From IMG/VR virus record IMGVR_UViG_2778261354_000005: a stretch of 7,640 bases of DNA. One strand, given 5' to 3'. The stretch comes from a virus. Lineage: Duplodnaviria > Heunggongvirae > Uroviricota > Caudoviricetes. Positions within the stretch are counted from its first letter, which is position 1; the number at the start of each line of letters is the position of its first letter. The position numbers and the translations under genes were made by a program. Under the pieces are notes generated by a model. That model was not told the origin of the DNA. It saw only the letters and a program-made list of their open reading frames with translations, and searched no databases. Positions 1 to 7,004 of the stretch are shown here, piece by piece.

Positions 1-163
1 CTCGTTAGCCCATGAATAACAATCAGAAAGTACCATAACAGACCCGAAGAAAATGAAATATAAGAGAAGATCAACGGGTGAGGAAAAAGTTCAAAAAATC
101 GCTGCCGGGGAGGAAGGAAACTACCGGATGGAAAGAGTCCCCCTAAAGCAGACTGACAGACAT

Positions 164-189
164 CACAAATCCCCGGGTGGGGATTTGTG
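164..189. repeat. Perfect inverted repeat / stem-loop: cacaaatcccc (164-174), loop gggt, ggggatttgtg (179-189)
   Basis: Seen directly: 11-bp perfect inverted repeat with a 4-nt spacer. No T-tract follows on either strand, so it is not a canonical intrinsic terminator. It lies about 110 bp past the stop of the minus-strand KilA-N gene. Confidence 0.5.
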
Positions 190-296
190 TATAAGAGACA
201 GGCATAAACAGGGGCATCAGCTCTGAACCGGGTCTGAACAATACGATCCCCATACGCGGGGCAATTTCAGGGGTCAGTAGTGCTCTCACGGTCACC

Positions 297-1112
297 TCAA
301 TGAACGGTATCGAGCAGCTTTAACAGCTCAGGGAATCGGGATTCGAAGAAATGCGGCTGCGTCTCGCGCGGATTTGCGGGACTGGTGATGTTCTTGCCGA
401 ACATGCAGCCTTTCGCTGTCAGCGACCAGAATTTTTTGATGTTGTTAATCGCGGTACGGCTGTATCGTTCGCGTTGTTCAACGATCCCCAGCTTCGCCAT
501 CTGGTGATATGCCTGATTAGCCGTCAGGCGGATACCATACTGCTTCAGCAGTGCACTCAGCGACAGCGTAGGGCGGCTTGAACCATCTGGCGCATCAGCA
601 GGTGCATCAATGGCATAGATCGGCATAAGTTCAGGAAGACCAGCTACCTTTGATAATTTCTGGTATGCACCAAGTTTCGAGGAGTTTGACAGATTTAGAG
701 TCTTTGCTGCTGATTCAAGCAGAATGACCCCGGATTTAATTTTGTCGGATGTGGTTTCTTCTGGTGATGAATTATGAAGCGCATCAAAAGTACGTATCAC
801 TTTTAAGCTGAATGCCGGGCTGATCCACATTGCATATGCATAGACCAGCTCTTTACAGACATACGTCCCACCATTGCGCCCCTGAATGGTGATGACAGGA
901 ATACTACGGGAATCTCCCGTAGTTTCTTCTTCCAATAATTCCACAAGAGCCTTCGTTTCAGGACGACGCATAAACTCGTGAACTTCCAGCGAACGGGAGG
1001 AGCGATTCTCACCAGCGGCAAGAAGAGCAGCTTTCTGAAGGTCGTTAAGACAGTAGTTAGATTCGAAGTACTGGCGCACAGAAACGCCATCAATTACAAG
1101 CAACTGATTCAT
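297..1112 (-). CDS. KilA-N / KilAC(ANT)-domain antirepressor-like protein (Roi/Ant-like)
   Basis: ORF 297..1124 in the track. The N-terminal half has the KilA-N-type signature (…GGTYVCKELVYAYAMWISPAFSLKV…) and the C-terminal half resembles the KilAC/ANT domain of phage antirepressors. Start placed at ATG 1110-1112 (MNQLLVIDG…), which has GGAG 6 nt upstream; the track's 1124 start is a GTG four codons earlier. Stop TGA at 297-299. Confidence 0.75.
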   Translation of the reverse strand: MNQLLVIDGVSVRQYFESNYCLNDLQKAALLAAGENRSSRSLEVHEFMRRPETKALVELLEEETTGDSRSIPVITIQGRNGGTYVCKELVYAYAMWISPAFSLKVIRTFDALHNSSPEETTSDKIKSGVILLESAAKTLNLSNSSKLGAYQKLSKVAGLPELMPIYAIDAPADAPDGSSRPTLSLSALLKQYGIRLTANQAYHQMAKLGIVEQRERYSRTAINNIKKFWSLTAKGCMFGKNITSPANPRETQPHFFESRFPELLKLLDTVH

Positions 1113-1211
1113 TGGTTTCTCCACAAATTTTTATCCACGAGCGGGACTGCACTCCCTTTTCGTTGATGCAGGATGAACTTACTGCGATTTTTAATAGTTA
1201 TCAAGGATACA

Positions 1212-1227
1212 CTGTTCATAAATACAG
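1212..1227. promoter_or_regulatory. LexA (SOS) box-like motif CTGT-N8-ACAG upstream of the KilA-N gene
   Basis: Seen: caCTGTtcataaatACAGta at 1210-1229. It matches the E. coli LexA box consensus taCTGT(at)4ACAGta at 16 of 20 positions, with both CTGT/ACAG arms intact and an AT-rich spacer. It lies about 100 bp upstream of the KilA-N start, just downstream of a candidate promoter. Confidence 0.5.
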
Positions 1228-1240
1228 TATCTTTAACGAG

Positions 1241-1269
1241 GTAATACCCAAATTTAGGGTGTTGCTCAA
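1241..1269 (-). promoter_or_regulatory. Candidate sigma70 promoter for the KilA-N gene
   Basis: On the minus strand: -35 TTGAGC (plus 1264-1269), 17-bp spacer, -10 TATTAC (plus 1241-1246). Each hexamer matches consensus at 4 of 6. Prediction by eye only. Confidence 0.3.
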
Positions 1270-1274
1270 TTCCG

Positions 1275-1670
1275 TTACCGAGTTGCTAATTTGCAACTCG
1301 CTTTTTCGTACTTACTGATAGTGATCTCGACCTTCCCCTCCGGGATAACCGGTCCCCACTCCACCAGCATTCTTTTCACCTGTCTGTCGTCTTCCCACAC
1401 ACCCGCGTGGGTCAGGGCGTCAAACAGCGCCTTGTTATAGTTGTCCAGATCGCGGATCCGGTTATCCGGAGGAAACAACACGATCTCCACTGAAGCAGGT
1501 GCCGACGTTGGTTTCGGCAGACGACGTAACTGCTCAACTATTGCTGCACACGCCGCGCTCTGGAATTTTCGCCCCGCCGCGCTTATCAGGCTCTTACCAG
1601 CAAACGCCCCTTTGTTGGGGTGTCGCCAGTACGTGTTCACGCTGGGCGGAAAAGGCAGTATTAGCTTCAT
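1275..1670 (-). CDS. rusA: RusA-family Holliday junction resolvase
   Basis: 131 aa. N-terminal LPFPPSVNTYWR and the acidic catalytic motifs RDLDNYNKALFDALTHAGVWEDDRQV are typical of RusA. The ATG at 1668-1670 overlaps the upstream gene's stop (ATGA). Stop TAA at 1275-1277. Confidence 0.85.
   Translation of the reverse strand: MKLILPFPPSVNTYWRHPNKGAFAGKSLISAAGRKFQSAACAAIVEQLRRLPKPTSAPASVEIVLFPPDNRIRDLDNYNKALFDALTHAGVWEDDRQVKRMLVEWGPVIPEGKVEITISKYEKASCKLATR
1279..1306 (+). terminator. Plus-strand-oriented intrinsic terminator-like hairpin inside the 3' end of rusA
   Basis: Seen: 8-bp perfect stem cgagttgc (1279-1286) / gcaactcg (1293-1300), loop taattt, then c + TTTTT (1302-1306) on the plus strand. 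On the minus strand the hairpin is followed by GTAACGGAATTG, with no U-tract, so it is oriented to stop plus-strand transcription. Confidence 0.4.
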
Positions 1671-1993
1671 ACTTTCAGGCCCCTCTCATGTAACCAGTGG
1701 GCTGCACGCAGCCTGGCGTTTGCCTCACCGGCAAGCAGGGCGCGGATAATCCCGACCGCCTCGCTGTCGTCGTCCTTCACCGCGGTATGAAGAGTGATAC
1801 CCCGGGCCACGCCACGCTTTATCGTGATGACACCTTTTTTCTCCAGTGCGCGAAGATGCTCCACCGCTGCATTCACCGAACGGTATCCCAGCATGGTTGC
1901 CACCTCCTGATTGGTTGGCGGGAAGCCACGTTCTTTCTGATAAGAAATCAGCATATCCAGCACCTGCTGCTGGCATTGAGTTAATGTCGTCAT
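1667..1993 (-). CDS. LexA N-terminal DNA-binding-domain protein lacking the S24 autocleavage domain
   Basis: 108 aa. It aligns by eye to the E. coli LexA winged-HTH domain, including the recognition-helix region RSVNAAVEHLRALEKKGVI (LexA: RSPNAAEEHLKALARKGVI). There is no Ala-Gly cleavage site or Ser/Lys catalytic domain after it. ATGA overlaps at both ends (1990-1993 and 1667-1670). Confidence 0.75.
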   Translation of the reverse strand: MTTLTQCQQQVLDMLISYQKERGFPPTNQEVATMLGYRSVNAAVEHLRALEKKGVITIKRGVARGITLHTAVKDDDSEAVGIIRALLAGEANARLRAAHWLHERGLKV

Positions 1994-4029: not shown

Positions 4030-4250
4030 GCCACACCTCCCAGACGCTTAAACATTTTTCCGGAGCAAAAGGCTATAAGCGGCATACTGACGCGGTAATT
4101 ACGGCCCAGCGGTTCACAAACCACCTTCTGACATTCACGGTCAACCAGGCTAACACGTAGAACATGCCCAGCAGGCGTGGTGTACCACTGACCCGGACGA
4201 GGACAACGGAAAGTATGATTGGTAAACCGTTTGAAAATATTCCGGATCAT
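4026..4250 (-). CDS. Hypothetical small protein, 74 aa, 4 Cys
   Basis: ATG at 4248-4250 is preceded by AAGGGGG. ATGA overlap with the upstream ORF stop. No family recognised. Confidence 0.5.
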   Translation of the reverse strand: MIRNIFKRFTNHTFRCPRPGQWYTTPAGHVLRVSLVDRECQKVVCEPLGRNYRVSMPLIAFCSGKMFKRLGGVA

Positions 4251-5407
4251 TTGCGCCCCCTTACCTCTGAAGGGTTCAGCGACAAATTTATGAGACAGGC
4301 CAGCGCCGAAGCATCATTAATATAGTCATATAAGCTAACAGCCAGCGGAGATTCGGCTTTTGCCAACATAGGATAAAGCTGCTGCAGCCAGACCTGATGA
4401 ATTGATGAAATGTAGGAACAGAGAACGCTGGCGTTATGTGCAACGTCGCTCGGTACAGCGGGCTTTGAAAGCTGTTTCTCCATCTGGTTAAAGGCATTTA
4501 TGTATGCCTCTTTGAACCGGGCAGCACGTTTACCCGTGAAACCCATAGCAAGAAACGCAAAACCGTCTCGTGTGATTTGATAGCAAGGGAGCTTGCGTGT
4601 ACCACCGTTCGGTTGATTTACCGAAATCGATGTCTCCGCAAAATTGCGGGCACAAAACTCTGGGGAACAATCCAGAGTGCGGATCTTTTTCAGCACATCG
4701 TCGTGACGCTTGGAGAAGAAGTTGGCAACAGCCAAAGAAGTGGTAACGGCCTGGCCGTTGTCAATGGTGATTTCAGGTTGAGTGAGGGCTGGGATCGTAG
4801 CCATGATGGCAGCCTCCGTTGACAGTGAAAAACTTCCACCACCGGAAACGCCAATTTCACTGGTGGTGAACTGGACGGGGTTGGCGTAACCGGCGTCAAC
4901 GGAGACCGGCGCACCTTTCGGTGCCCCCGCCCAGCCCACCATAATCTGGATGTGAGCAAATGCGGACGATAAAAAAGACGCTGGCGCGTCATACATCGCC
5001 GTTGACAATTTCAGGACGCCAATCCCGGCACCCGCTTTATAAGGTGCCTGAGCAGTGTAACGTCCCGGAATTGCAGAATCAATATGCTGGTGGTCCTTCA
5101 CACTCAACAAAATCACGCCTGAATTTCCACAAAGGACTAAAGCACTCATGCGGGTAGTCTTTGCGAAGATAGATAACGCGCTGTGTTTCTGGCTCCCAAC
5201 GAATAACATGGACATAAAGCCCTCTTCCGTCACGAAACCAGCGGTTAAGTTCCTGCACAACTCGCCCCCCACAGTCAGGTAAAGTTCTCTGTGGTTACTT
5301 ACAGCCAGGTGATTTGGTAATCTGCATTCATGCCGTAACAACAGGTGTTCAGCGACGCTGACCACCAGCTGTTGCGACAAACGGTTATTTGCCGTTAAAC
5401 TATTCAT
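4247..5407 (-). CDS. Rha-family phage regulatory protein; Rha domain in the C-terminal 185 aa, with an in-frame 201-codon N-terminal extension of unknown function
   Basis: Residues about 212-310 match the Rha pattern (VTTSLAVANFFSKRHDDVLKKIR…YQITRDGFAFLAMGFTGKRAARFKEAYINAFNQME). An internal ATG at 4802-4804 (MATIPALTQPEITIDNGQAVTTS…) has GGAGG 8 nt upstream and would give a canonical 185-aa Rha. The frame nevertheless stays open for 201 codons upstream, to an ATG at 5407 that overlaps the CII-like stop (ATGA). Confidence 0.6.
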   Translation of the reverse strand: MNSLTANNRLSQQLVVSVAEHLLLRHECRLPNHLAVSNHRELYLTVGGELCRNLTAGFVTEEGFMSMLFVGSQKHSALSIFAKTTRMSALVLCGNSGVILLSVKDHQHIDSAIPGRYTAQAPYKAGAGIGVLKLSTAMYDAPASFLSSAFAHIQIMVGWAGAPKGAPVSVDAGYANPVQFTTSEIGVSGGGSFSLSTEAAIMATIPALTQPEITIDNGQAVTTSLAVANFFSKRHDDVLKKIRTLDCSPEFCARNFAETSISVNQPNGGTRKLPCYQITRDGFAFLAMGFTGKRAARFKEAYINAFNQMEKQLSKPAVPSDVAHNASVLCSYISSIHQVWLQQLYPMLAKAESPLAVSLYDYINDASALACLINLSLNPSEVRGRK

Positions 5408-5961
5408 GCGTTAGTTTCTCCACAACCAGAAGCAATCGACGCCACGACGCCCGGAGCTGCACACTCGCGGGCGTTACTATTTTCTGGAGCGCAGAAGATT
5501 TTGTAGACCAGTGCTGCATGCTCCTGGAGCTTCGAAATTGAAAGATACAGTTCGTCGTTAATTGCTGTCTTCTCATGCGGTTCCACTACACCGTCTTCGA
5601 TTGCTGAACGAATCTGTTTTGAATAACTGCCGATCTGTTCAATGACTTCCAGTAAACGCTGGTTAATATCGGCATTGTCCACATCCTCGACGTCAGGAAG
5701 AGACACAAAGACGCCATTTGCAGACTGCGCCACAGCGTCAGCAATGAAGTGAGTGCCACCAGCACGTTGTAAAATCATTGCCCATCCCAGCGGGAAAATC
5801 TGATCGCCATCGGCACGAAGGCGGTTAAATAATGCGTTCTCTGTTACATCCAGCCACTCAGCAGCTTCAGCGTAACCCTCCGGCAACGCCGCGATAGTTT
5901 TTCTGACAGCTTTCACGTACCACTCAGGCTGTTTTTCCACTTTCCAGTTATGATTACCCAC
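5404..5961 (-). CDS. CII-like early regulatory protein (tentatively the larger phage-186 CII type)
   Basis: 185 aa. GTG start at 5959-5961 has AGGAGG 6 nt upstream and overlaps the cro-like 3' end by 8 nt. The call rests mainly on position directly after cro; family membership is not verified. Confidence 0.5.
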   Translation of the reverse strand: MGNHNWKVEKQPEWYVKAVRKTIAALPEGYAEAAEWLDVTENALFNRLRADGDQIFPLGWAMILQRAGGTHFIADAVAQSANGVFVSLPDVEDVDNADINQRLLEVIEQIGSYSKQIRSAIEDGVVEPHEKTAINDELYLSISKLQEHAALVYKIFCAPENSNARECAAPGVVASIASGCGETNA

Positions 5962-6214
5962 GGCTTACCTCCTGTTCCTGTGGTTTAAACCCATTCTGGT
6001 TTTGGCTAGATTGAAAACGTGCCGGATAAAGAATCTGCATTTCGCTGATTTCACCCTTAAAAAAATTGGCCAGACGTTCTGCAAGATCGATAGATGGAAT
6101 TTGTTCCAGTCTTTCAATACGACTCAGCGTCGCTGGATTGACCTGAACGCCAGCAGCAACATGCTGCAAAGTAAATCCGTGCGTCTTACGCACATTCCGT
6201 AATGGTGATTGCAT
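5954..6214 (-). CDS. cro: Cro-like HTH (XRE-family) regulator
   Basis: 86 aa with an HTH signature (GFTLQHVAAGVQVNPATLSRIE). Transcribed divergently from the repressor gene. ATG at 6212-6214 is preceded by GGAGG. Confidence 0.8.
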   Translation of the reverse strand: MQSPLRNVRKTHGFTLQHVAAGVQVNPATLSRIERLEQIPSIDLAERLANFFKGEISEMQILYPARFQSSQNQNGFKPQEQEVSRG

Positions 6215-6311: not shown

Positions 6312-7004
6312 ATGAACATAGGAAACCGAGTCAGACAACTTCGCCAGGCGAAGAACATGAAAATCGCCGATCTCGCTGAAGCAATAGGAGTGGATGCGGC
6401 GAATATCTCACGCCTGGAAACAGGTAAGCAGAAACAATTCACTGAACAAGCCCTGAGTAATATTGCCAGGAGCTTAGGTGTTGATATTGCTGATCTCTTT
6501 ACCTCAGACGTCAAAAGTAATACTGTATTTAAAAACAGTATTAGTGAGGATGTTGCGCAGGTGAAGGATGTATTCCGTATTGAAATGCTGGATGTCAGTG
6601 CCAGTGCGGGAAATGGCCTTATCCAGGGCGGTGATGTCATTGATGTGATTCATGCCATTGAATACAGAACTGATAATGCTGTATCGATGTTTGGCGGACG
6701 GCCAGCCAATCACATTAAAGTTATCAACGTTCGTGGGGACAGTATGTGTCCAACCATTGAGCCAGGAGATCTCATCTTCGTTGATGTCAGTATCAATCAG
6801 TTTGATGGAGATGGTATCTATGTATTTGGTTTTGATGATAAAATTTATGTCAAACGACTGCAAATGATACCTGACAAACTACTGGTGATTTCTGATAACC
6901 AGATTTACCGTGAATGGGGAATTACCAGCGAAAATGAACACCGGTTTATGGTCTTTGGAAAGGTCTTAATCAGCCAGTCACAAACCCTTAAGCGACACAA
7001 TTAA
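6312..7004 (+). CDS. cI: CI-like prophage repressor, HTH-XRE + S24 (LexA-like) peptidase domain
   Basis: 230 aa. N-terminal HTH (RVRQLRQAKNMKIADLAEAIGVDAANISRLETGK) and C-terminal S24 motifs (VRGDSMCPTIEPGDLIFVD with the catalytic Ser, and KIYVKRLQ with the Lys). Stop TAA at 7002-7004. Confidence 0.9.
   Translation: MNIGNRVRQLRQAKNMKIADLAEAIGVDAANISRLETGKQKQFTEQALSNIARSLGVDIADLFTSDVKSNTVFKNSISEDVAQVKDVFRIEMLDVSASAGNGLIQGGDVIDVIHAIEYRTDNAVSMFGGRPANHIKVINVRGDSMCPTIEPGDLIFVDVSINQFDGDGIYVFGFDDKIYVKRLQMIPDKLLVISDNQIYREWGITSENEHRFMVFGKVLISQSQTLKRHN

What the first reader, a model, noticed from the sequence alone, without database searches (positions are those of the whole stretch)
1113..1274. LexA-box-like operator in front of the KilA-N/KilAC antirepressor-like gene
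A CTGT-N8-ACAG motif with an AT-rich spacer (16 of 20 to the E. coli SOS-box consensus) sits just downstream of the best promoter candidate for the gene. SOS-controlled antirepressors are an established induction route in some temperate phages, such as 186 Tum and the Gifsy-type phages. This prophage also has an S24-domain repressor, suggesting two parallel SOS inputs plus a possible phage LexA mimic modulating one of them.
Basis: partly seen in the sequence, partly recalled or inferred. Interest (0 to 1): 0.6.

Follow-up and report, generated by a model that had tools for sequence, protein, structure and literature searches.

The report
LexA box beside KilA-N gene promoter
A real, evolutionarily conserved binding site for the bacterial DNA-damage repressor LexA sits directly upstream of the private promoter of a prophage KilA-N gene, so this gene is probably switched on by DNA damage; nothing shows that its product is an antirepressor.

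Summary
The motif is real: CACTGTTCATAAATACAGTA at 1210-1229, 16/20 to consensus. Its heterology index is 7.26, the range of proven E. coli SOS boxes such as uvrA/ssb (6.98). About 5e-4 such sites are expected per window. It is invariant in all E. coli and Shigella variants examined. LexA-like palindromes recur about 104 nt upstream of KilA-N homologues in other enterobacterial genera (21% of 112 upstream regions against 0.6% of control windows).

The conserved sigma-70 promoter (-35 TTGATA 1204-1199, -10 TAAGTT 1181-1176) lies downstream of the box, so the box abuts the -35 and is centred near -50. LexA most likely represses by blocking the UP-element and -35 region. This step is inferred.

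The "KilAC/antirepressor" label is unsupported: no ANT domain, no structural match. In intact relatives the transcription unit continues into DUF968 and antiterminator Q. Here ISEc13 cuts it.

A truncated LexA paralogue is encoded two genes upstream, as in phage GIL01. It could use the same site.

Separately, a stronger LexA box (HI 4.13) lies inside the cI coding sequence. It is conserved in all 14 distinct alleles examined, across seven genera. That is the more surprising observation.

The parts
1210..1229 (.). LexA (SOS) box. Read on the gene's (-) strand it is TACTGTATTTATGAACAGTG; core CTGT-N8-ACAG at 1212-1227.
   Evidence: HI 7.26 and chance about 5e-4 per window. Invariant in four E. 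coli/Shigella variants; the SfIV/AZ187 variant scores HI 4.93. TGT and CAG are the only invariant blocks in the upstream part of the alignment of six intergenic sequences from five genera. It is the only site with HI<=15 in the whole 45-kb phage PhiR49_1.
1199..1204 (-). -35 hexamer TTGATA of the KilA-N promoter (P2), 5 nt downstream of the box
   Evidence: Fourth-best promoter score in the window, 99.97th percentile, using my approximate position matrix. TTGAAA, TTGATA or TTGCAG at the same offset from the box in 7 of 11 lineages.
1176..1181 (-). -10 hexamer TAAGTT of P2, 17-nt spacer. Predicted start near 1169, which puts the box centre at about -50.5.
   Evidence: TAAGGT, TAATGT, TAGTGT, TATGGT or TAAAAT at the same offset (27-28 nt after the box) in 10 of 11 lineages, with unrelated spacer sequences. 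The start site is inferred, not mapped.
1113..1169 (-). Predicted 5' leader. It holds the conserved GGGAGTGCAGTCCC / TGCAGTC motif (1156-1143) and the Shine-Dalgarno GGAG (1122-1119).
   Evidence: A TGCAGTC-type motif (TGCAGGC in a few lineages) and GTGGAG are conserved across genera. The RNA fold is no more stable than shuffled sequence, z = -0.07. Function unknown.
297..1112 (-). KilA-N domain gene (271 aa), the cargo of the promoter
   Evidence: Pfam PF04383, E 1.3e-15, residues 10-114. PHROG 129 'transcriptional regulator'. C-terminal half without a known domain.
1241..1269 (-).
   Evidence: 99.88th percentile. The -10 lacks the final T. Not conserved: in other genera this stretch is rusA coding sequence. 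Probably minor or inactive.
1275..1670 (-). rusA, the last gene of the upstream early operon. No terminator separates it from the box on this strand.
   Evidence: Pfam RusA. The only terminator-like hairpin here (1279-1300) has its T-run on the + strand.
1667..1993 (-). Truncated LexA paralogue (108 aa, LexA DNA-binding domain only). A possible second ligand of the box.
   Evidence: PF01726, E 2.9e-19. Aligns to E. coli LexA residues 2-70, E 6e-16, keeping the RS-NAA-EHL recognition helix. The lexD-rusA-box-KilA-N gene order recurs in many genera.
6521..6540 (.). Second, stronger LexA box (TACTGTATTTAAAAACAGTA) inside the cI coding sequence, in the codons of the HTH-S24 linker
   Evidence: HI 4.13, chance about 1e-5 per window. 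A box with HI 2.77-7.37 sits at the same codons in all 14 distinct alleles examined (50-100% aa identity, seven genera) and in 80 of 80 viral contigs.
1..201 (.). End of an ISEc13 (IS4-like) element inserted in the DUF968 gene. It cuts the KilA-N-DUF968-Q unit in this copy.
   Evidence: Relatives align only from 202 onward. Positions 1-201 are 100% identical to ISEc13 copies.

Best explanation
The site is a functional LexA-family operator attached to a CI-independent sigma-70 promoter (P2) that drives the KilA-N gene. In intact relatives the same unit continues into the abutting DUF968 nuclease-like gene and the Q antiterminator gene.

In the lysogen, host LexA occupies the box. The box ends 5 nt upstream of the -35 hexamer and spans roughly -60 to -41, which is where the RNA polymerase alpha C-terminal domains and UP element act. 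LexA there keeps P2 off by blocking polymerase docking.

DNA damage activates RecA, LexA cleaves itself, and P2 fires. With HI about 7 the operator is of moderate affinity, like uvrA/ssb, so it should be induced early and be somewhat leaky. During lytic growth the gene is also read through from the early operon, because no terminator precedes the box.

Shown: the site, its score, its conservation, and the conserved promoter hexamers. Inferred: LexA occupancy, repression from this position, the start site, and damage inducibility. The role of the KilA-N protein is unknown. It is a DNA-binding-type protein, and nothing identifies it as an antirepressor.
For: - HI 7.26 falls inside the range of validated E. 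coli boxes: recA 4.31, uvrA/ssb 6.98, lexA-2 8.32, uvrD 8.80, ruvAB 9.19.
- It lies well below the roughly 13.6 upper edge of the low-HI cluster in PSOSP.
- Chance expectation is about 5e-4 per window.
- The box is invariant while its flanks vary in E. coli/Shigella variants.
- In six intergenic sequences from five genera, TGT and CAG are the only invariant blocks in the upstream part of the alignment.
- Among 112 distinct KilA-N upstream regions, 21% carry a site with HI<=13.6, against 0.58% of 2762 control windows from the same loci. At HI<=10 the figures are 9.8% against 0.11%. Positions cluster at -101 to -107.
- The -35 and -10 hexamers are conserved at a fixed offset after the box in 10 of 11 lineages.
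- It is the only LexA-like site in the 45-kb phage PhiR49_1.
- Precedent: the Gifsy prophages keep a LexA-controlled operon at the equivalent place, 1.3 kb downstream of the replication genes.
Against: - The box lies upstream of the -35. Most proven LexA operators overlap the -35, the -10 or the start site; the uvrA box, for example, overlaps its -35. Repression from about -50 is plausible but unproven here.
- Many orthologous sites in other genera have a non-canonical promoter-distal half (GTGGAT) and HI of 12-14. What is conserved may therefore not be strong LexA binding itself.
- No terminator insulates P2 from early-operon read-through, unlike in the Gifsy prophages.
- The promoter and start site are predictions. 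My promoter matrix uses frequencies recalled from memory.
- No expression or binding data were found in 9 literature searches.
- CI here looks RecA-cleavable, so induction does not need a LexA-controlled helper.
Confidence: 0.55

Rival explanations
1. The operator mainly serves the phage's own truncated LexA (108 aa, no cleavage domain), made from the early operon two genes upstream. Bound at about -50.5, it would either activate P2, as the truncated LexA homologue gp6 activates the late promoter of phage GIL01, or re-repress P2 once host LexA is destroyed. Host LexA would then be a competitor or co-regulator. This is compatible with the best explanation as a second layer.
For: - LexA_DNA_bind-only protein whose recognition helix is like that of E. 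coli LexA.
- The lexD-rusA-box-KilA-N gene order holds in most lineages that carry the box, 10 of 12 in the -104 group.
- A box centre near -50 is an activator-like position.
- GIL01 gp6 is a truncated LexA that binds a palindrome at -43.5 and activates P3, which LexA represses.
Against: - lexD is equally present in relatives with no intergenic region and no box: Stx2a_1447, mEp460, L222-L231.
- Some box-bearing loci have no lexD within 2.5 kb (L213, L234, L039).
- I saw no co-variation between the lexD recognition helix and the half-site sequence.
- Whether the 108-aa protein dimerises is unknown.
- No lambdoid member has been studied.
Confidence: 0.2
2. The box is an operator just downstream of promoter P1 (TTGAGC/TATTAC) and controls an SOS-induced antirepressor that inactivates the CI-like repressor, in the manner of Tum or the Gifsy antirepressors.
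For: - P1 exists at the 99.88th percentile of my scan, with the box at about +5 to +24.
- LexA-controlled antirepressors are established: 186 Tum, N15 AntC, Gifsy GfoA/GftA.
Against: - P1 is not conserved and lacks the -7 T, whereas P2 is conserved.
- The protein has no ANT/KilAC domain and no detectable relation to known antirepressor families.
- CI has an intact S24 autocleavage apparatus.
- The homologous repressor FsoR of Fels-1 is cleaved on induction, and Fels-1 still induces in a lexA3 host.
- The window holds a more conventional antirepressor candidate: a Rha-family gene behind C4/IsrK RNAs.
Confidence: 0.1
3. LexA (or LexD) bound here acts as a roadblock to early-operon transcription coming through rusA. 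It would gate read-through into KilA-N-DUF968-Q, and so the timing of late genes, rather than control a local promoter.
For: - No terminator lies between rusA and the box on the coding strand.
- The box sits immediately upstream of the gene block that ends in Q.
Against: - A conserved promoter directly follows the box, which a pure roadblock would not need.
- LexA is not known as an efficient elongation block (my own knowledge).
- Relatives that lack the intergenic region express Q without it.
Confidence: 0.07
4. A chance palindrome or a decayed relic with no present function.
For: - AT-rich intergenic DNA.
- In this copy the downstream unit is already broken by ISEc13.
Against: - Chance expectation is about 1e-5 for the intergenic region.
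- The box is conserved across variants and genera and strongly enriched at a fixed position.
Confidence: 0.05

Closest known systems
Gifsy-1/-2/-3 LexA-controlled dinI-antirepressor-irsA operon (Lemire, Figueroa-Bossi & Bossi 2011, PMC3121763)
   Same: A LexA box inside a lambdoid-type prophage, downstream of the replication genes and ahead of the late regulator region. It gives a CI-independent SOS input.
   Different: In Gifsy a terminator precedes the box; none does here. The Gifsy cargo is dinI plus a small antirepressor; here it is a 271-aa KilA-N protein of unknown role. The Gifsy repressors are non-cleavable; CI here has an intact S24 domain.
Coliphage 186 p95-tum and phage N15 antC (LexA-repressed antirepressor genes; named in PMC3121763, details from my own knowledge)
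   Same: A single phage gene placed under direct host LexA control.
   Different: Those products are demonstrated antirepressors and are essential for SOS induction. No homology or function links the KilA-N protein to them.
Bacillus phage GIL01 promoter P3: repressed by LexA, activated by gp6, a truncated LexA homologue (Fornelos et al. 2018, PMC6182141)
   Same: A phage that carries both LexA boxes at a promoter upstream of late functions and its own LexA-DNA-binding-domain-only protein. The palindrome lies next to the -35.
   Different: GIL01 is a tectivirus of a Gram-positive host. gp6 recognises its own palindrome, distinct from the LexA boxes, at -43.5. Here a single canonical SOS box sits at about -50, and no activity of the paralogue is known.
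CTXphi PrstA, where LexA binds upstream of the core promoter (Kimsey & Waldor 2009; recalled from memory, paper not held in the library)
   Same: A LexA operator upstream of the -35 rather than over the -10 or start site. As I recall, repression works by interfering with alpha-CTD/UP-element contacts.
   Different: CTXphi is a filamentous phage, and LexA acts there together with the phage repressor RstR at the same promoter. The mechanism is recalled from memory and was not verified here.
E. coli uvrA/ssb SOS box (HI 6.98)
   Same: Nearly the same predicted affinity (HI 7.26), and a box placed at the -35 region rather than at the start site.
   Different: The uvrA box overlaps the -35. Here the 20-mer ends 5 nt before it.

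Membership tests
Enterobacterial LexA operator (SOS box) | CTGT-N8-ACAG palindrome with an AT-rich spacer | tested here: met
   Exact match at 1212-1227. 16 of 20 to the 20-mer consensus.
Enterobacterial LexA operator (SOS box) | Heterology index within the range of sites that bind LexA | tested here: met
   HI 7.26 (4.93 in the SfIV variant), using the matrix recovered exactly from PMC12527982 Table S1. Validated sites run from 2.4 to about 12.8.
Enterobacterial LexA operator (SOS box) | Placed where bound LexA interferes with RNA polymerase at a promoter | tested here: inconclusive
   The box ends 5 nt upstream of a conserved -35, with its centre near -50. It overlaps the UP/alpha-CTD region but not the -10 or start site.
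Enterobacterial LexA operator (SOS box) | Conserved in orthologous regulatory regions | tested here: met
   Invariant in E. coli/Shigella variants. Footprint across five genera. About 37-fold enrichment upstream of KilA-N homologues. Many of those sites are only half-canonical.
Enterobacterial LexA operator (SOS box) | LexA binding and damage-inducible, lexA-dependent expression | not testable with these tools
   No binding or expression data found.
LexA-controlled antirepressor module (Tum / AntC / GfoA type) | Product related to a known antirepressor family (ANT/KilAC, Tum, Gfo) | tested here: not met
   No PF03374 or any other Pfam hit in the C-terminal half at E<=10. No PDB sequence match and no fold match. 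Direct comparison with Tum or GfoA sequences was not run.
LexA-controlled antirepressor module (Tum / AntC / GfoA type) | Product binds and inactivates the prophage repressor | not testable with these tools
   Needs genetics or biochemistry.
LexA-controlled antirepressor module (Tum / AntC / GfoA type) | The prophage repressor itself is not RecA-cleavable, so the antirepressor is the SOS input | tested here: not met
   CI has an S24 domain with invariant Ala99-Gly100, Ser144 and Lys181. Its relative FsoR of Fels-1 is cleaved in vivo.
KilA-N domain proteins (PF04383) | Significant match to the KilA-N domain model | tested here: met
   E 1.3e-15, 57.6 bits against a cutoff of 23.8, residues 10-114.
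Truncated LexA homologues of phages (GIL01 gp6-like) | LexA winged-helix DNA-binding domain without the S24 cleavage/dimerisation domain | tested here: met
   108 aa. PF01726 over residues 1-65. Aligns to LexA residues 2-70. Below the full-length lexA cutoff in NCBIfam.
Truncated LexA homologues of phages (GIL01 gp6-like) | Binds a palindrome at a phage promoter and activates it | not testable with these tools
   Only the geometry and gene order are suggestive.

The most novel reading that the evidence does not exclude
The box is one node of a LexA-family circuit built into this group of lambdoid prophages.

- Host LexA holds a CI-independent middle promoter (KilA-N, then DUF968, then Q) silent in the lysogen.
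- After LexA is destroyed, the phage's own non-cleavable truncated LexA, made from the early operon two genes upstream, takes over the same operator at about -50. It would act as a gp6-like activator or as a replacement repressor.
- A separately conserved high-affinity LexA box inside the cI coding sequence adds a third, direct LexA input to the switch.

If so, late-gene commitment in these phages would be gated by LexA itself and not only by CI cleavage.
Probability: 0.2. Interest if true: 0.75.

Novelty: new member of a known kind. Interest (0 to 1): 0.45.

Why it matters
LexA-controlled prophage loci decide when, and in which cells, prophages wake up. They also let prophages in the same cell influence one another.

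This module puts a DNA-binding KilA-N protein under a second SOS input that bypasses CI. In intact relatives the same transcription unit runs on into the Q antiterminator, the master switch for lysis and virion genes. The module is found in 186 of 5426 complete E. coli genomes and in Shigella phage SfIV. The carriers include O157:H7, O104:H4 and O55:H7 strains.

If LexA really controls this promoter, low-level or transient SOS could produce KilA-N, and possibly Q, without full repressor collapse. That would affect spontaneous induction and heterogeneity between cells.

The truncated LexA paralogue and the LexA box conserved inside cI make this phage group a tractable system for asking how phages rewire the SOS network itself.

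Tried and rejected
1. Simple consensus promoter scan. It found nothing in the intergenic region at its 9-of-12 threshold. I replaced it with a weighted scan and cross-genus comparison.
2. A + strand small RNA running from the box to the terminator-like hairpin at 1279-1300. The + strand promoters are weak (best is TTATCA-19-TACAGT). The hairpin lies in lineage-specific rusA codons and is not conserved. Terminator-like hits are no more frequent than in shuffled sequence. Rejected for lack of support.
3. The leader hairpin as a stable RNA element. Fold z-score is -0.07, and Rfam finds no family there.
4. The third CTGT-N8-ACAG at 5289-5304. HI 16.6 puts it in the non-binding class.
5. The e14 prophage of K-12 as a model. 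It has no site with HI<=14, and YmfK is not a close homologue of this CI.
6. KilAC/ANT assignment. Pfam at E<=10, NCBIfam, PDB sequence search and AlphaFold plus Foldseek were all negative. PADLOC gives only a partial hit of the KilA-N domain to candidate system PDC-S22.
7. Strict co-occurrence of the truncated LexA gene with the box. It does not hold.
8. Literature. Nine searches found no paper that links LexA to this KilA-N gene, to SfIV or PhiR49_1 regulation, or to a LexA box inside cI. Kimsey & Waldor 2009 and Bunny et al. 2002 could not be retrieved.

Full report
CONTEXT

The window is the early-right region of an E. coli-type lambdoid prophage, 96-99% identical to many E. coli chromosomes. 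The genes, reading leftward on the - strand from the immunity region, are as follows:
- CI, an HTH + S24 repressor, 6312-7004 on the + strand
- a Cro-like gene, 5954-6214
- a CII/YmfL-like gene, 5404-5961
- a Rha-family gene
- replication genes
- a Dam-type methylase, 1990-2688
- a 108-aa LexA-DNA-binding-domain-only protein, 1667-1993
- RusA, 1275-1670
- a 150-bp gap
- the KilA-N gene, 297-1112

In intact relatives (SfIV, PhiR49_1) KilA-N is followed without gaps by a DUF968/HNH-like gene and the Q antiterminator. In this window an ISEc13 element has inserted 94 nt into DUF968; positions 1-201 belong to the IS.

Yes. CTGTTCATAAATACAG lies at 1212-1227. The 20-mer CACTGTTCATAAATACAGTA (1210-1229) matches the consensus at 16 of 20 positions. 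The pattern occurs three times in the window against 0.10 expected.

From them I solved for the additive matrix. The fit is exact (rmse 1e-5) and reproduces the published values for recA (4.31), sulA (4.65), umuDC (2.77) and uvrB (6.11).

The site scores HI 7.26. That places it beside uvrA/ssb (6.98) and yebG (7.04), and ahead of lexA-2 (8.32), uvrD (8.80) and ruvAB (9.19). Under the window's base composition, 5e-4 such sites are expected per window and about 1e-5 in the gap.

CONSERVATION

The gap, together with the first ~80 codons of KilA-N, is a mosaic module. Stx2a_1447 and mEp460 have the same rusA and the same KilA-N C-terminal part, but a different N-terminus that abuts rusA, with no gap and no box.

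The module occurs in SfIV, in PhiR49_1 and in 186 of 5426 complete E. coli genomes, always between rusA and KilA-N. In the four sequence variants I aligned the box is invariant. One variant changes the last base and improves the score to HI 4.93.

Across genera (Citrobacter, Kosakonia, Rahnella, Serratia) the gap has diverged. TGT and CAG of the box remain the only invariant blocks in its upstream part; nearer the gene, the ribosome-binding site and start codon are also conserved.

I also scanned 112 distinct upstream regions of KilA-N homologues drawn from genome and viral collections. For this scan I allowed a mismatch in the CTG/CAG core, with an assumed penalty of 3.2.
- 21% carry a site with HI<=13.6 between -200 and -30, against 0.58% of 2762 control windows from the same loci.
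- At HI<=10 the figures are 9.8% against 0.11%.
- The sites cluster at -101 to -107 from the start codon.

In the complete 45-kb phage PhiR49_1 this is the only site with HI<=15.

One caveat. Many of the cross-genus sites have a canonical promoter-proximal half but a GTGGAT distal half, with HI of 12-14. The deep conservation is therefore of a LexA-like element. Only some lineages, this one included, carry a full-strength box.

WHERE IS THE PROMOTER?

Lining up the lineages on the box shows a conserved layout: box, 4-5 nt, TTGAAA/TTGATA/TTGCAG, 17 nt of unrelated sequence, then TAAGGT/TAATGT/TAAGTT/TAGTGT/TATGGT/TAAAAT. The -10 is present in 10 of 11 lineages and the -35 in 7 of 11.

In the window this promoter is TTGATA (1204-1199) and TAAGTT (1181-1176). 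It is the fourth-best promoter score in the whole window by my weighted scan (the hexamer frequencies were recalled from memory). The predicted start is near 1169, which gives a 57-nt leader.

It lacks the final T of the -10, and in other genera the same stretch is rusA coding sequence.

The box therefore abuts the -35 from upstream, with its centre near -50.5. It does not lie downstream of the promoter.

MECHANISM

The best-supported reading is a LexA operator that controls P2 by occupying -60 to -41. That is the zone of UP-element and alpha-CTD contact, and the box's footprint would reach the edge of the -35. DNA damage would then switch on KilA-N independently of CI.

With HI about 7 the operator is of moderate affinity. 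In E. coli that goes with appreciable basal expression and early induction.

No terminator precedes the box on the coding strand. The gene is therefore also part of the early operon during lytic growth, which differs from the Gifsy arrangement.

The position is unusual for LexA. I recall a precedent in CTXphi PrstA (Kimsey & Waldor 2009) but could not retrieve the paper. Repression from this position is inference.

THE PARALOGUE

The 108-aa protein two genes upstream aligns with E. coli LexA residues 2-70 (E 6e-16) and keeps the recognition-helix residues. The gene order lexD-rusA-box-KilA-N recurs in many genera.

In Bacillus phage GIL01 a truncated LexA homologue, gp6, binds a palindrome at -43.5 and activates the late promoter that LexA represses. 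An analogous role here is attractive, given the activator-like position of the box and the Q gene downstream.

The evidence is weak, however. The paralogue is just as common in relatives without the box. No lambdoid member has been studied; Stx-phage surveys merely list it as a 'LexA family regulator'.

IS THE CARGO AN ANTIREPRESSOR?

I found no evidence for it.
- Only the N-terminal KilA-N domain is recognised.
- The C-terminal 157 aa give no Pfam hit even at E<=10, so there is no ANT/KilAC domain.
- There is no NCBIfam hit and no PDB sequence hit.
- Its homologues are all simply 'KilA-N domain-containing protein'.
- An AlphaFold model (pLDDT 77.6) has no Foldseek match below E=0.1. The weak hits are APSES/Mbp1 and winged-helix DNA-binding folds.
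- PHROGs calls the family a transcriptional regulator.

Three further points weigh against the antirepressor model. CI has an intact autocleavage apparatus. Its relative FsoR of Fels-1 is cleaved in vivo, and Fels-1 still induces in a lexA3 host. The window also contains a more conventional antirepressor-type module: Rfam finds a C4 antisense RNA (4859-4946, 81 bits) and IsrK (4971-5047, 62 bits) just upstream of the Rha-family coding region. That is the P1 immI / Gifsy-1 IsrK layout.

THE SECOND BOX

The strongest LexA site in the window is not the one reported. TACTGTATTTAAAAACAGTA (6521-6540, HI 4.13, chance about 1e-5) lies inside cI, in the codons of the linker between the HTH and S24 domains.

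A box with HI 2.77-7.37 occupies the same codons in every allele examined. These are 14 distinct alleles at 50-100% protein identity:
- E. coli O104, O157 and others
- Salmonella ST64B and Fels-1 FsoR
- Citrobacter amalonaticus
- C. rodentium phage phiNP
- Lonsdalea
- Buttiauxella
- Cronobacter phage ENT47670

The same holds in 80 of 80 viral contigs.

The linker is otherwise hypervariable. Within it, Val72 and Ser76 are invariant. The residue at position 75 varies only among Asn, His, Tyr, Thr(ACC) and Ser(TCC), exactly the codons that keep (A/C)CAG. This is a signature of selection on the DNA rather than on the protein.

P22-type C2 (42% identity) lacks the box, and so does the e14 prophage of K-12.

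A sense-strand TTTACC-17-TACTGT promoter-like arrangement is present in 13 of 13 alleles, but it overlaps conserved Leu-Phe-Thr codons. Antisense promoter candidates are strong in only two alleles.

I found no description of this box in the literature available to me. Its function is open. Candidates are an SOS-gated internal or antisense transcript, or a LexA brake on cI transcription.

The two boxes are independent modules: PhiR49_1 has only the KilA-N box, while mEp460 and Stx2a_WGPS2 have only the cI box.

VERDICT

The site is best filed as a new member of the known class of LexA-controlled prophage loci. Three corrections apply: the geometry (the box is upstream of a conserved promoter), the cargo (a KilA-N DNA-binding protein, not a recognisable antirepressor), and the context (an added truncated LexA paralogue and a second, intragenic LexA box).

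Noticed in passing
window 6521-6540 (inside cI, 6312-7004 +): Near-consensus LexA box TACTGTATTTAAAAACAGTA (HI 4.13) within the cI coding sequence, in the HTH-S24 linker. A box with HI 2.77-7.37 sits at the same codons in all 14 distinct alleles examined (50-100% aa identity). These include Salmonella ST64B and Fels-1 FsoR, Citrobacter, Lonsdalea, Buttiauxella and Cronobacter phage ENT47670. The amino-acid variation in the linker is restricted to codons that keep CTGT/(A/C)CAG. P22-type C2 and e14 YmfK lack the box. Function unknown; no description found in the literature.
   Followed up: partly
window 4859-5060 (- strand): Rfam finds a C4 antisense RNA (4859-4946, 81 bits) and IsrK (4971-5047, 62 bits), plus a weak c4 target site. 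All lie inside the 386-aa 'Ash + Rha' ORF (4247-5407). That ORF is therefore probably over-called: the real layout would be a P1 immI / Gifsy-1 IsrK-type RNA-controlled Rha-family (antirepressor-like) gene.
   Followed up: no
window 1-201: End of an IS4-like ISEc13 element inserted 94 nt into the DUF968 (YdfU-family, HNH-like) gene. It separates KilA-N from DUF968 and Q in this prophage copy. Relatives align only from position 202.
   Followed up: yes
window 1143-1156 (- strand), and the equivalent place in L007, L008, L051, L066, L071, L077 and others: A TGCAGTC-type motif within a short inverted repeat (GGGAGTGCAGTCCC) is conserved 30-45 nt upstream of the KilA-N start across genera (TGCAGGC in a few lineages), although the surrounding sequence differs. 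The RNA fold is no more stable than shuffled sequence (z = -0.07). Possibly a protein-binding site, for example for autoregulation.
   Followed up: partly
window 870-1298: Mosaic junctions. The N-terminal ~80 codons of KilA-N, the 150-bp gap and the last ~8 rusA codons form a module that replaces a gap-less rusA/KilA junction seen in Stx2a_1447, mEp460 and SfII-type phages. The right-hand boundary falls inside a hairpin (1279-1300) that looks like a terminator on the + strand only.
   Followed up: partly
window 1667-1993 (- strand) and many related loci: A LexA-DNA-binding-domain-only gene sits immediately upstream of rusA in lambdoid prophages of many enterobacterial genera (40-98% identity, recognition helix conserved). 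It is annotated as a 'LexA family regulator' in Stx phages and appears to be unstudied.
   Followed up: partly
window 5287-5306: A third exact CTGT-N8-ACAG match (CTCTGTGGTTACTTACAGCC) with a GC-richer spacer and poor flanks. HI 16.6 places it in the non-binding class, so it is probably a chance match.
   Followed up: yes
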